Assembly (NCBI RefSeq): GCF_001677475.2 | Contig: NZ_CP015229.1 | DNA from: Escherichia coli | GTDB taxonomy: Bacteria > Pseudomonadota > Gammaproteobacteria > Enterobacterales > Enterobacteriaceae | Reading direction: 5' to 3' (one strand) | DNA: 64,000 nucleotides | Notes under the pieces: generated by a model | What the model was told of the DNA's origin: nothing | Database searches by the model: none | The model's input: only the letters and a program-made list of their open reading frames with translations | Program-made: the position numbers and the translations under genes | Shown here: one piece after another, positions 907-57,252 of the stretch | Layout: every line of letters begins with the position of its first letter | How positions within the stretch are numbered: the first letter of the stretch is position 1

Positions 907-1875
907 ATGGAGAATGTTCGGTTCTTGCAAGGAGTGAAACAATATTTTTGTACTAAGGCATTAGATGTCATTCTGCTAATTTATCTACTCCTTGGTTTTA
1001 TACTTCTCCCTTATAAATATCTGTGGAAAGATATTATTTTATCTCTGTGCTTTGTTGGTATTCTTCTTTATGCATTAGTGGAAGAAAATCGCATTACAGA
1101 ATATATGGGGTATTTTGTCAAGTTCAGTAATAAAAACAGTTTGAATAGTTGTGCTGCCTGGTGTTCACTTATTGCATGGTTTATATTTTTGTTTTTTGTG
1201 CTTTCAATTAATATTTTTCCAGTCAGTGTCTCTGTATACGTTTTTAGTGCTTTTTCAGTATTTGTTTTTCTGGGAGGTGTTTTTATTATATTAGAGTTGG
1301 AATTTAAAAATAATAAAAAATTAATGATTATTAGGTCTATGACTTTAGCTGTCATACCAATTATATATTTATTCTCAAGTAGTTTTTCTTCCAGTTTATT
1401 TTTAAGTTTGAGTAATCTAAATATCACACTATCACCATGGGTTGAGTATTTCTGGAAAGGGATGGCTTTTTTGTTTCTTTTCTTCATGTTAATGCAACTT
1501 ATTATCTATTTTACTTTTTTAACTCTGTGGGCTAAATTAAGTGTGTACAGGTTGTTTATACTTGCCGGAGCATTTATAGCATCTACTATTTTAGTGGTTT
1601 TTGCTTCAAAAAACGTAGAGAGTATTTCGTACTACGTTTTAAAAAGTACTATAGATTTTGAATGGCGCAGTCAGGTTAAATGTGGACAGTTGAATATTTC
1701 ACATCCGGATGAAAGGTATTTCGGGTTTAATACCGATAAATATACTGTATTTTATTCCAATAGAGAGGGTAAATGGGGGTTCAATGAGTTGAAATGTAAG
1801 AAAGGTTCTGACAGGAGAGATGCATATTCCATTGAGAATGTCTCAGAATATAACGTGCCAGGATGGCTGAAATAA
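907..1875 (+). CDS. Hypothetical polytopic membrane protein (about 7 predicted TM helices plus ~85 aa hydrophilic C-terminal domain); AT-rich orphan gene
   Basis: ORF track 874..1875 (TTG start); ATG at 907 with AAGGA-like RBS preferred; very low GC relative to flanks; occupies the slot where K-12 has mrr. Confidence 0.5.
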   Translation: MENVRFLQGVKQYFCTKALDVILLIYLLLGFILLPYKYLWKDIILSLCFVGILLYALVEENRITEYMGYFVKFSNKNSLNSCAAWCSLIAWFIFLFFVLSINIFPVSVSVYVFSAFSVFVFLGGVFIILELEFKNNKKLMIIRSMTLAVIPIIYLFSSSFSSSLFLSLSNLNITLSPWVEYFWKGMAFLFLFFMLMQLIIYFTFLTLWAKLSVYRLFILAGAFIASTILVVFASKNVESISYYVLKSTIDFEWRSQVKCGQLNISHPDERYFGFNTDKYTVFYSNREGKWGFNELKCKKGSDRRDAYSIENVSEYNVPGWLK

Positions 1876-30560: not shown

Positions 30561-31349
30561 TCATTTCAGCGTACAATCGCCACATTGCTGCACATCCGGT
30601 AAGCGATAACGCTGGCAGCAAGTGCGGCGCACCAGCAGGCCGTCGCGCAGTACCACGGTACGCCAGAGTGGATTATCATCACCGTTCGTGAGCGTTTTCT
30701 CAAAAAAGAGGGCATGGCGCAGCGATTCAACAGTAGCCTCGCCGAGCAGTTGCTTCATCTCAGTGAGATACCAGTTGATCAAATAACCGGTATTACTCCA
30801 GATAAGTTTGCCGTTGATCTCTCCGGTCGCTTCTAGTGCTTGCACAACCGGAACCAGCGCCTGGCTGATTAACGTTTCCATTCGATGCTGCGGCGAATGT
30901 GGTGTTGCGTTTTTATCTTCACACACATCGACCCAGAAACAGGCGACGCGTCCGGTTTCGTGAAACTCAGCATGGAAATGTTCCGGCGACACATCTAATG
31001 CTTTTTCCTGCGTCAGTAGCGCCAGCATTAATGGTGGCACCATCAGGCCGATATACCATTGTGCCCATAGTGAGATCAGCGGTTTGTTCTCGCGGATCAT
31101 CGTTGGTTGGTTGCGATAGATATGATCGGAATAGACCGCGAGTAGAGAACTTAGCGCATTCGGTGATGACCATTGCGCCAGCGTCATGGCGTTAAGCGGA
31201 GCGGGTTCATCCAGGCGGATAAACTCCAGCAAATGTTCACGATGTTCGGCGATCGTCGCCCGTACGGCTTGTGCAAGCCCAGCATCCTGCGGCTGGAGAT
31301 GCGTTCGCCAGATAACATCTTCATAGAGCGGTGCGGAACGATAGGCCAT
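30561..31349 (-). CDS. fhuF: Ferric-siderophore reductase FhuF (2Fe-2S)
   Basis: ORF track 262 aa; C-terminal cysteine cluster RRTCCQRYRLPDVQQCGDCTLK. Confidence 0.9.
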   Translation of the reverse strand: MAYRSAPLYEDVIWRTHLQPQDAGLAQAVRATIAEHREHLLEFIRLDEPAPLNAMTLAQWSSPNALSSLLAVYSDHIYRNQPTMIRENKPLISLWAQWYIGLMVPPLMLALLTQEKALDVSPEHFHAEFHETGRVACFWVDVCEDKNATPHSPQHRMETLISQALVPVVQALEATGEINGKLIWSNTGYLINWYLTEMKQLLGEATVESLRHALFFEKTLTNGDDNPLWRTVVLRDGLLVRRTCCQRYRLPDVQQCGDCTLK

Positions 31350-31365
31350 AATCGGGATAGTAATC

Positions 31366-31476
31366 TAAATGATAATGATTGCTAATCCTAGCGATAGGTT
31401 TACCCGATAGCAAGGGATTTCTCTGGCTTGCAAATGATAAAAATTATCATATGATATTAGTTATCATTATCAATGA
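31366..31476. promoter_or_regulatory. Fur-box-like iron-regulatory sites in fhuF/yjjZ divergent promoter region
   Basis: gataatgattgctaatcc and tgataaaaattatcatatgatattagttatcattatc resemble Fur consensus GATAATGATAATCATTATC. Confidence 0.6.
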
Positions 31477-31489
31477 AAGAGATGAAACC

Positions 31490-31726
31490 ATGTTGCAACG
31501 TACGCTGGGCAGTGGCTGGGGAGTGTTGCTGCCGGGATTGCTGATTGCAGGGCTGATGTATGCGGATTTATCGCCGGATCAATGGCGGATTATCATTCTG
31601 ATGGGATTAGTATTGACGCCGGTGATGCTGTATCACAAACAGTTGCGGCATTACGTTTTGCTGCCATCGTGCCTGGCGCTTATTGCTGGCGTCATGCTGA
31701 TGATGATGAATTTGAAGCAGGGATGA
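31490..31726 (+). CDS. yjjZ: Small inner-membrane protein YjjZ (78 aa)
   Basis: ORF track 31379..31726; ATG at 31490 gives MLQRTLGSGWGVLLPGLLIAGLMYADL... Confidence 0.75.
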   Translation: MLQRTLGSGWGVLLPGLLIAGLMYADLSPDQWRIIILMGLVLTPVMLYHKQLRHYVLLPSCLALIAGVMLMMMNLKQG

Positions 31727-31764: not shown

Positions 31765-31851
31765 TGGTGCGAGGGGGGGGACTTGAACCCCCACGTCCGT
31801 AAGGACACTAACACCTGAAGCTAGCGCGTCTACCAATTCCGCCACCTTCGC
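31765..31851 (-). tRNA. leuV: tRNA-Leu (anticodon CAG)
   Basis: Reverse complement reads GCGAAGGTGGCGGAATTGGTAGACGCGCTAGCTTCAGGTGTTAGTGTCCTTACGGACGTGGGGGTTCAAGTCCCCCCCCTCGCACCA; encoded CCA. Confidence 0.95.
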
Positions 31852-31885
31852 ACAGTCATCTTACTTTTTTTGATATCGCCTCGTT

Positions 31886-31972
31886 TGGTGCGAGGGGGGG
31901 GACTTGAACCCCCACGTCCGTAAGAACACTAACACCTGAAGCTAGCGCGTCTACCAATTCCGCCACCTTCGC
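31886..31972 (-). tRNA. leuP: tRNA-Leu (anticodon CAG), one-base variant in variable arm
   Basis: Same 87-nt tRNA with aagaacac instead of aaggacac on plus strand. Confidence 0.95.
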
Positions 31973-32000
31973 CCAGTGCGAGCAATATCAACGTGGTTTT

Positions 32001-32087
32001 TGGTGCGAGGGGGGGGACTTGAACCCCCACGTCCGTAAGGACACTAACACCTGAAGCTAGCGCGTCTACCAATTCCGCCACCTTCGC
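32001..32087 (-). tRNA. leuQ: tRNA-Leu (anticodon CAG)
   Basis: Third tandem copy identical to the first. Confidence 0.95.
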
Positions 32088-32192: not shown

Positions 32193-32387
<195 letters not shown>

Positions 32388-57053: not shown

Positions 57054-57252
57054 GAGGTTGCCCCGTATTCAGTGTCGCTGATTTGTATTGTCTGAAGTTG
57101 TTTTTACGTTAAGTTGATGCAGATCAATTAATACGATACCTGCGTCATAATTGATTATTTGACGTGGTTTGATGGCGTAGATGCACGTTGTGACATGTAG
57201 ATGATAATTATTATCATTTTGCGGGTCCTTTCCGGCGATCCGACAGGTTACG

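What the first reader, a model, noticed from the sequence alone, without database searches (positions are those of the whole stretch)
31366..31476. Fur-box-like sites in the fhuF/yjjZ intergenic region
Two stretches match the Fur consensus well, consistent with iron regulation of divergent fhuF and yjjZ.
Basis: partly seen in the sequence, partly recalled or inferred. Interest (0 to 1): 0.2.

Follow-up and report, generated by a model that had tools for sequence, protein, structure and literature searches.

The report
Known Fur operators between fhuF and yjjZ
The short gap between the iron-reductase gene fhuF and the small gene yjjZ holds two clusters of binding sites for the iron-sensing repressor Fur, one over each gene's promoter; these sites were footprinted in E. 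coli K-12 years ago, so the finding is correct but ordinary.

Summary
The window is an Escherichia coli chromosome. fhuF (30561-31349, minus strand) and yjjZ (31490-31726, plus strand) diverge from a 140-bp spacer.

I built a position weight matrix (PWM) from nine other footprinted Fur sites. It finds a strong cluster at 31430-31471 (19.3, 17.5, 11.7 and 11.3 bits) and a weak cluster at 31365-31389 (9.4 and 8.7 bits). The spacer is the best-scoring 140-bp stretch of the 64-kb window. Local shuffles reach the top score in 0.08% of trials.

Transferred to window coordinates, the two clusters fall inside the high-affinity (31426-31478) and low-affinity (31343-31396) DNase I footprints of Chen et al. 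2007. The strong cluster covers the yjjZ promoter and start site (31463). The weak one covers the fhuF -10 and start site (31379/31380).

In Citrobacter and Salmonella a 354-codon (1,065-bp) GGDEF gene separates the two genes. There the weak cluster stays with fhuF and the strong cluster stays with yjjZ, so each is its own gene's operator.

Published ChIP-exo, fur-deletion and iron-reporter data agree. Novelty: already known. Interest: low.

The parts
30561..31349 (-). fhuF coding sequence (262 aa, ferric-siderophore reductase)
   Evidence: ORF. Pfam FhuF (PF06276) and FhuF_C (PF11575). Annotated fhuF in matching E. coli genomes.
31490..31726 (+). yjjZ coding sequence (78 aa, DUF1435 membrane protein; the end coordinate includes the stop codon)
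   Evidence: Sequence. It aligns to the K-12 yjjZ start. Pfam DUF1435, E = 6e-37.
31430..31471 (.). Strong Fur-box cluster, the yjjZ operator. Overlapping 19-mers at 31430-48 (17.5 bits), 31436-54 (11.7), 31447-65 (11.3) and 31453-71 (19.3). It spans -33 to +9 of the yjjZ promoter.
   Evidence: Consensus scans. Independent PWM and shuffles. It lies inside the published high-affinity Fur footprint, 4603763-4603815 in K-12 version 2 coordinates = window 31426-31478 (mapping). 32 of 42 columns are invariant across Escherichia, Citrobacter and Salmonella, and the cluster stays with yjjZ where the genes are separated.
31365..31389 (.). Weak Fur-box cluster, the fhuF operator. Overlapping 19-mers at 31365-83 (8.7 bits) and 31371-89 (9.4 bits). 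It spans +16 to -9 of the fhuF promoter.
   Evidence: PWM and shuffles. It lies inside the published low-affinity Fur footprint, 4603680-4603733 = window 31343-31396. 20 of 25 columns are invariant across three genera against 25 of 56 for the rest of the region (Fisher p = 0.003), and the cluster stays with fhuF in Citrobacter and Salmonella.
31428..31463 (+). yjjZ sigma-70 promoter: -35 TTGCAA 31428-31433, 16-bp spacer, -10 TATGAT 31450-31455, transcription start 31463
   Evidence: Promoter scan. The same hexamers are listed for yjjZ in PMC3946193. The K-12 start at 4,605,777 (PMC10301672) maps to 31463 using the coordinates.
31379..31414 (-). fhuF promoter: -35 TTGCTA 31414..31409, 17-bp spacer, -10 TAGGAT 31391..31386 (TATGAT in K-12), transcription starts at 31380 and 31379
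   Evidence: Starts at 4603717/4603716 in Chen et al. 2007 Figure 5, mapped. I read the hexamers from the sequence. The simple promoter scan did not list them. The -35 and the T-A---T frame of the -10 are conserved in alignment A2.
31372..31408 (.). Possible OxyR site overlapping the fhuF core promoter (a lead only)
   Evidence: 13 of 20 specified positions of the OxyR consensus, which I recalled from memory. Only 14 of about 64,000 window positions reach 13 or more. A review lists fhuF among genes that transcriptome data suggest are repressed by oxidised OxyR (PMC8115020). The primary footprint paper (Zheng et al. 2001) could not be read.

Best explanation
The 140-bp spacer between the divergent genes fhuF and yjjZ carries two separate operators for the iron-sensing repressor Fur.

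When iron is plentiful, Fe2+-loaded Fur dimers occupy the overlapping 19-bp boxes at 31430-31471. These cover the yjjZ -35, -10 and transcription start, so RNA polymerase is excluded and yjjZ is tightly shut off.

A second, lower-affinity pair of boxes at 31365-31389 covers the fhuF -10 and start site and represses fhuF. Because this site is weak, fhuF should be released at milder iron limitation or Fur depletion. From my own knowledge, not verified here, that is why fhuF::lacZ serves as the Fur titration reporter.

Shown, in K-12 by others: Fur protects both regions, and both genes are Fur- and iron-regulated. Shown here: the window carries the same boxes with good PWM scores, they overlap the core promoters, and each cluster is conserved and travels with its own gene across genera. 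Inferred: promoter occlusion as the mechanism, and the assignment of the strong cluster mainly to yjjZ and the weak cluster mainly to fhuF.
For: - Sequence: 16/19 and 15/19 consensus matches against 0.04 expected.
- The independent PWM gives 19.3 and 17.5 bits in the strong cluster and 9.4 and 8.7 bits in the weak one. These parallel the published 22.3/20.8/16.1 and 14.6/9.3 bits.
- The spacer is the top cluster of the window, and the shuffle p is about 8e-4.
- Published DNase I footprints map to 31426-31478 (high affinity) and 31343-31396 (low affinity).
- Promoter overlap: yjjZ start at 31463 and promoter TTGCAA-16-TATGAT; fhuF starts at 31380/31379.
- Natural experiment: in four Citrobacter genomes and Salmonella enterica arizonae a 354-aa GGDEF gene lies between the two genes. 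The weak cluster is retained beside fhuF (8.7-14.7 bits). The strong box is retained at the same distance from the yjjZ ATG (19.3-21.1 bits).
- Function: both genes are in the core Fur pan-regulon. yjjZ is derepressed in a fur deletion strain. A PyjjZ-gfp reporter in Salmonella is iron-repressed. yjjZ is a direct Fur target in CFT073. fhuF::lacZ is derepressed by Fur titration.
Against: - No binding or expression data exist for this particular strain.
- It differs from K-12 at 31459 (A for G) inside the best box, which costs 1.9 bits (19.3 against 21.1). It also differs at 31388 (C for A) in the fhuF -10 and weak cluster.
- The weak cluster alone is only marginally above chance on sequence (3.6% of local shuffles). 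Its conservation could partly reflect the overlapping -10, start site and a possible OxyR site.
- Chen et al. described both clusters as parts of 'the fhuF promoter'. The one-operator-per-gene split is my inference from geometry and synteny, not an experiment.
Confidence: 0.9

Rival explanations
1. The matches are chance products of an AT-rich promoter region (32% G+C) and are not Fur sites.
For: The spacer is AT-rich. The Fur consensus is itself AT-rich and resembles -10 elements. The weak cluster's top score is reached in 3.6% of local shuffles. Other AT-rich parts of the window also collect moderate PWM scores.
Against: Composition-matched local shuffles reach the observed maximum in 0.08% of trials and never the observed number of sites. 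Both clusters coincide with published Fur DNase I footprints. Both are conserved across three genera.
Confidence: 0.02
2. Only the strong cluster is a functional operator. It represses both promoters in Escherichia, and the fhuF-proximal 'weak cluster' is conserved merely because it is the fhuF -10, start site and leader, perhaps with an OxyR site.
For: The PWM scores are modest at 8.7-9.4 bits. The stretch overlaps the fhuF -10 and start site and the best local OxyR-consensus match. Chen et al. saw only weak protection at 50 nM Fur.
Against: The region is nevertheless protected by Fur in vitro. In Citrobacter and Salmonella, fhuF has only this cluster nearby, about 1.3 kb from the strong one. 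There it scores as high or higher, up to 14.7 bits, with the core AATCTAAATGATAAT invariant.
Confidence: 0.1
3. In Escherichia the two clusters work as one cooperative unit. Fur spreads or bridges between them (centres about 74 bp apart), so the high-affinity yjjZ operator helps load the weak fhuF operator. This is compatible with the best explanation, as an added layer.
For: Fur is reported to extend its protection at higher concentrations ('secondary footprinting'). The clusters are adjacent only in Escherichia. The sub-site facing fhuF (31430-31448) is 16.3-17.5 bits in all seven Escherichia sequences but 8.8 bits or less in Citrobacter and Salmonella.
Against: There is no direct evidence. 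The published footprints are two separate regions with an unprotected gap. fhuF remains the most easily derepressed Fur reporter, which argues against strong help from the neighbouring site.
Confidence: 0.2
4. The dominant regulator acting on these sequences is another protein, such as OxyR or H-NS, rather than Fur.
For: There is an OxyR-like 37-mer at 31372-31408. A review lists fhuF among genes that transcriptome data suggest are repressed by oxidised OxyR. AT-rich DNA is typical H-NS substrate.
Against: Fur footprints, Fur ChIP-exo and fur-deletion derepression are all reported for these genes. In the genomic RNA-polymerase-binding table of PMC3946193, the fhuF/yjjZ spacer is not flagged H-NS, although neighbouring entries such as yjjP/yjjQ are. 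OxyR control would add to Fur control, not replace it.
Confidence: 0.03

Closest known systems
fhuF1 and fhuF2 Fur-binding clusters of E. coli K-12 (Chen, Lewis, Shultzaberger, Lyakhov, Zheng, Doan, Storz, Schneider 2007, Nucleic Acids Res 35:6762)
   Same: It is the same locus, with the same two clusters at the same positions relative to both start codons. 136 of the 140 spacer bases are identical. The window clusters fall inside the published high- and low-affinity footprints.
   Different: There are four SNPs. A for G at 31459 lowers the best box by 1.9 bits. C for A at 31388 changes the fhuF -10 from TATGAT to TAGGAT. The paper treats both clusters as fhuF promoter elements. Synteny in Citrobacter and Salmonella shows here that the strong one belongs to yjjZ.
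yjjZ promoter with Fur sites as recorded in EcoCyc/RegulonDB and confirmed by ROSE in vitro transcription (PMC10301672)
   Same: The promoter hexamers TTGCAA and TATGAT are the same, as is the start site (K-12 4,605,777 = window 31463). Two Fur sites are reported around the start, and the promoter is silent unless fur is deleted.
   Different: Nothing substantive. The paper quotes an 18-bp spacer, whereas the sequence and PMC3946193 give 16 bp.
Divergent Fur-controlled promoter regions such as fepA-fes and fepB-entC
   Same: These are short AT-rich spacers between divergent iron genes, with clustered overlapping Fur boxes over the promoters. They were used as PWM training sites.
   Different: In the fhuF-yjjZ spacer the two operators differ strongly in strength. 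They are separable modules that sit about 1.3 kb apart in related genera.

Membership tests
Fe2+-Fur operator (Fur box) of the E. coli Fur regulon | A match to the 19-bp palindromic Fur box (GATAATGATAATCATTATC or its PWM) within the range of footprinted sites | tested here: met
   The strong cluster scores 19.3 and 17.5 bits. The nine training sites score 14.1-20.8 bits, self-scored. Consensus matches are 16/19 and 15/19. The weak cluster at 8.7-9.4 bits is below the training range and meets the criterion only marginally.
Fe2+-Fur operator (Fur box) of the E. coli Fur regulon | Several overlapping sites forming a cluster with about 6-bp register, beyond chance | tested here: met
   Positive-scoring sites lie at 31430/31436, at 31447/31453/31459 and at 31365/31371. 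No local shuffle out of 5000 gave six sites of 8 bits or more.
Fe2+-Fur operator (Fur box) of the E. coli Fur regulon | Position overlapping the core promoter of the regulated gene (repression by occlusion) | tested here: met
   The strong cluster spans -33 to +9 of yjjZ. The weak cluster spans +16 to -9 of fhuF. Published start sites were mapped onto the window.
Fe2+-Fur operator (Fur box) of the E. coli Fur regulon | Evolutionary conservation of the boxes relative to flanking non-coding DNA | tested here: met
   20 of 25 columns invariant against 25 of 56 (p = 0.003) for the weak cluster, and 32 of 42 against 9 of 18 (p = 0.047) for the strong cluster, across 12 sequences of three genera.
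Fe2+-Fur operator (Fur box) of the E. coli Fur regulon | [quoted passage not shown] | not testable with these tools
   Reported for K-12 (DNase I footprints and gel shift) and by ChIP-exo in several strains. Not measured for this strain's alleles.
Fe2+-Fur operator (Fur box) of the E. coli Fur regulon | Iron- and fur-dependent expression of the adjacent genes | not testable with these tools
   Reported in the literature: yjjZ derepressed in a fur deletion strain, PyjjZ-gfp repressed by iron in Salmonella, the fhuF::lacZ Fur titration reporter, and membership of the core pan-regulon.
OxyR binding site | A match to four ATAG-type elements spaced one helical turn apart (ATAGnTnnnAnCTATn7ATAGnTnnnAnCTAT, recalled from memory) | tested here: inconclusive
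   The best local match is 13/20 at 31372-31408. Only 14 window positions reach 13 or more, but two unrelated places reach 14. The primary paper was not available.

The most novel reading that the evidence does not exclude
In the Escherichia lineage, loss of the intervening GGDEF gene (or failure to gain it) placed the high-affinity yjjZ operator about 74 bp from the weak fhuF operator. The sub-site facing fhuF (31430-31448) then became strong: 16.3-17.5 bits in Escherichia against 8.8 bits or less in Citrobacter and Salmonella. On this reading the juxtaposition rewired fhuF regulation through cooperative Fur loading, so the iron threshold of fhuF in Escherichia depends on its neighbour's operator.
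Probability: 0.15. Interest if true: 0.3.

Novelty: already known. Interest (0 to 1): 0.08.

Why it matters
It matters little beyond correct annotation. It confirms that this strain keeps the standard Fur control of fhuF and yjjZ.

The one modest addition is the cross-genus comparison. It shows that the historically named 'fhuF1' high-affinity site is really the yjjZ operator. fhuF's own operator is the weak proximal one. That fits the use of fhuF as the most easily derepressed Fur reporter.

Tried and rejected
- The DNA search allows only 3 mismatches, so I did full consensus and PWM scans in Python.
- The supplement of Chen et al. 2007, which lists their 24 sites, is not held. I therefore rebuilt a PWM from the nine footprinted regions in their Table 3, fetched from K-12. 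One script failed because all loci are stored in a single file.
- Zheng et al. 2001, the OxyR footprint at fhuF, could not be read. The OxyR site therefore remains a lead based on a consensus recalled from memory.
- A first search for yjjZ within 1 kb upstream of fhuF in Citrobacter and Salmonella found nothing. Extending to 1.5 kb found it beyond a GGDEF gene.
- Rfam found no RNA family in the spacer, only the three tRNA-Leu genes and a sub-threshold REP-like naRNA4 match downstream.
- The strongest walker coordinate in Chen et al. (4603779 = window 31442) does not coincide with the centre of either of my two best 19-mers (31439 and 31462). I could not resolve their model's zero position, so I rely on the footprint ranges instead.
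- Whether the GGDEF gene was lost in Escherichia or gained in the other genera could not be settled.

Full report
**Identity of the locus**

The 1.5 kb around the finding matches 5,423 of 5,426 complete E. coli genomes over at least 80% of its length, at 95-99% identity in nearly all. The genes under the match are annotated bglJ, fhuF, yjjZ and tRNA-Leu.

In the window, fhuF is the 262-codon ORF at 30561-31349 on the minus strand. Pfam assigns it FhuF and FhuF_C. yjjZ is the 78-codon ORF starting at the ATG at 31490, and Pfam assigns it DUF1435. The non-coding spacer is 31350-31489, which is 140 bp at 32% G+C.

Aligned to K-12 MG1655 (locus L001), the spacer has no indels and four substitutions:
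- 31388: C in the window, A in K-12
- 31421: C in the window, A in K-12
- 31459: A in the window, G in K-12
- 31488: C in the window, T in K-12

Two places in the 64-kb window match the 19-bp consensus GATAATGATAATCATTATC at 16/19. One is 31453-31471. Dinucleotide-preserving shuffles expect 0.04 such matches. A full mismatch count adds 31430-31448 at 15/19.

I fetched nine other Fur regions footprinted in K-12: fepA-fes, fepB, entC, fur, tonB, cir, sodA, fecA and fecI. Their coordinates come from Table 3 of Chen et al. 2007. I took the best 19-mer in each and built a palindromised PWM of 14 bits information.

Scanning the window gives these scores in the spacer:
- 31453-31471: 19.3 bits
- 31430-31448: 17.5 bits
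- 31436-31454: 11.7 bits
- 31447-31465: 11.3 bits
- 31371-31389: 9.4 bits
- 31365-31383: 8.7 bits

Only seven positions in the whole window reach 14 bits. The spacer is the highest-scoring 140-bp stretch, with 94 summed positive bits against 65 for the runner-up. In 5000 composition-matched shuffles of the spacer, the maximum reached 19.3 bits in 0.08% of trials, and none produced six sites of 8 bits or more.

The fhuF-proximal half is weaker. Its maximum is reached in 3.6% of shuffles, and two sites of 8 bits or more occur in 0.5%.

**Mapping to published experiments**

Chen et al. 2007 (PMC2189734) predicted two Fur clusters upstream of fhuF and footprinted them with DNase I:
- a high-affinity region, fhuF1, at 4603763-4603815
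- a low-affinity region, fhuF2, at 4603680-4603733

They placed the fhuF transcription starts at 4603717/4603716, and the fhuF and yjjZ start codons at 4603686 and 4603827. Those two start codons correspond to window 31349 and 31490, so window coordinate = K-12 version 2 coordinate minus 4,572,337. The footprints therefore map to 31426-31478 and 31343-31396, and the fhuF starts map to 31380/31379.

My strong cluster (31430-31471) and weak cluster (31365-31389) each fall inside one footprint. Their information-theory scores (22.3, 20.8 and 16.1 bits; 14.6 and 9.3 bits) show the same strong-versus-weak pattern as my independent matrix.

**Promoter geometry**

The yjjZ start site reported for K-12 is 4,605,777 in version 3 coordinates (PMC10301672). 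It maps to window 31463.

The promoter is TTGCAA (31428-31433), a 16-bp spacer, then TATGAT (31450-31455). The same hexamers appear in PMC3946193. The strong cluster thus spans -33 to +9 of yjjZ, which is classical promoter occlusion.

For fhuF, the published starts imply a -10 of TAGGAT (31391..31386; TATGAT in K-12) and a -35 of TTGCTA (31414..31409). I read these from the sequence. The weak cluster spans +16 to -9. The strong cluster lies at -50 to -91 of fhuF.

**Related sequences**

A scan of one genome per species with the FhuF protein returned ten loci: five from Escherichia (an E. coli strain, two unnamed Escherichia isolates, E. whittamii and E. albertii), four from Citrobacter, and Salmonella enterica subsp. 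arizonae.

In the Escherichia loci, yjjZ is adjacent to fhuF exactly as in the window.

In Citrobacter and Salmonella the arrangement differs. A 354-aa membrane GGDEF protein (ORF; Pfam PF00990) lies between the two genes, and yjjZ begins about 1.4 kb from fhuF. In those genomes:
- The weak cluster remains next to fhuF, at 8.7-14.7 bits.
- The strong box remains at the same distance from the yjjZ ATG, at 19.3-21.1 bits.

In the alignments, AATCTAAATGATAAT is invariant beside fhuF (A2). TCATATG.TATT..TTATCATTATC is invariant at all its written bases beside yjjZ (A3).

Invariant columns are enriched in the boxes:
- weak cluster: 20 of 25 against 25 of 56, p = 0.003
- strong cluster: 32 of 42 against 9 of 18, p = 0.047

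This natural separation shows that the two clusters are independent modules. The strong one is the yjjZ operator and the weak one is the fhuF operator.

Within E. coli, 5,424 of 5,426 genomes carry the spacer. It is at least 99% identical in 2,072 records and 95-99% identical in 3,344.

**Function**

This strain has not been tested, but published evidence on the same sequences elsewhere is consistent:
- fhuF and yjjZ belong to the core Fur pan-regulon, defined by ChIP-exo plus expression in nine E. coli strains (PMC10164565).
- yjjZ is a direct Fur target in uropathogenic CFT073 (PMC7157518).
- The yjjZ start is undetectable in wild type but active in a fur deletion strain and in vitro.
- A PyjjZ-gfp reporter in Salmonella is induced by iron limitation and repressed by added iron (PMC8432900).
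- A yjjZ-lacZ fusion in Salmonella behaves as Fur-repressed (PMC8970401).
- fhuF::lacZ is the reporter of the Fur titration assay (PMC3145626 and PMC1874648).

From my own knowledge, not verified here, fhuF was chosen for that assay because its promoter binds Fur weakly. That agrees with its own operator being the low-affinity cluster.

**Mechanism and rivals**

Most likely (0.9), Fe2+-Fur dimers bind the overlapping boxes and occlude each core promoter. Repression of yjjZ would be tight, and repression of fhuF more easily relieved.

- The chance or AT-richness explanation is excluded by the shuffles, the footprints and the conservation.
- The idea that only the strong cluster is functional is weakened by two facts: the weak region is footprinted, and it is retained, and is often stronger, where fhuF stands apart from yjjZ.
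- A cooperative layer in Escherichia remains open. The centres lie about 74 bp apart, and the sub-site facing fhuF is 16.3-17.5 bits in all Escherichia but 8.8 bits or less in the other genera.
- OxyR may also bind over the fhuF promoter. A review reports that transcriptome data suggest repression of fhuF by oxidised OxyR, and the best local consensus match is 31372-31408. I could not read the primary paper.

**Comparison, novelty and verdict**

This is the same element as the K-12 fhuF1/fhuF2 Fur clusters and the Fur-controlled yjjZ promoter recorded in the databases. Sequence-testable membership criteria are met for the strong cluster: PWM score, clustering, promoter overlap and conservation. 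They are met marginally on score, but clearly on conservation, for the weak one. Binding and expression cannot be tested with these tools but are published for near-identical DNA.

Novelty: already known. Interest: low (0.08). The only added value is the synteny argument that assigns each cluster to its own gene.

Noticed in passing
window 57197-57221: The best Fur-PWM hit of the whole window (GATAATTATTATCATTTTG, 20.9 bits; also 16/19 to the consensus) is not at an iron gene. It lies in the cos region of a lambdoid prophage. Window 57098-57252 aligns to the right end of phage lambda, up to the ...ACAGGTTACG terminus, and is followed by the GGGCGGCG of the left cohesive end. Lambda itself has GATGATAATCATTATCAC at that spot. 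Whether Fur binds there is unknown.
   Followed up: partly
L012-L015 and L017, upstream flank of fhuF (e.g. L015 316-1380): Citrobacter species and Salmonella enterica arizonae carry a 354-aa membrane GGDEF diguanylate cyclase gene between fhuF and yjjZ, on the fhuF strand. All Escherichia loci lack it. Whether it was lost or gained was not determined.
   Followed up: partly
window 31430-31448: This sub-site of the yjjZ operator, the one facing fhuF, scores 16.3-17.5 bits in all seven Escherichia sequences. The homologous stretch scores 8.8 bits or less in Citrobacter and Salmonella, which have GAGAAA where Escherichia has GATAAA.
   Followed up: partly
window 31386-31391 (minus strand): The fhuF -10 hexamer is TAGGAT in the window, as in most of the Escherichia and Citrobacter sequences compared. 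K-12 MG1655 alone among the twelve has the better TATGAT. Promoter strength measured in K-12 may therefore overestimate that of other strains.
   Followed up: partly
window 31372-31408: This is the best local match (13 of 20 specified positions) to the OxyR consensus, which I recalled from memory. It overlaps the fhuF -10, start site and weak Fur cluster. The conserved CGATAG repeats at 31393-31398 and 31406-31411 lie in or next to it.
   Followed up: partly
window 1488-1506: A Fur-PWM hit of 15.6 bits (GTTAATGCAACTTATTATC) lies immediately upstream of a 139-codon minus-strand ORF (1068-1487) and inside a 333-codon plus-strand ORF (874-1875). I did not identify the genes.
   Followed up: no
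window 32227-32300: A sub-threshold Rfam match to naRNA4 (a REP-type repeat; 51.4 bits against a gathering score of 59.5, cut off by the end of the searched stretch) lies between the leuV/leuP/leuQ tRNA genes (31768-32087, minus strand) and rsmC.
   Followed up: no
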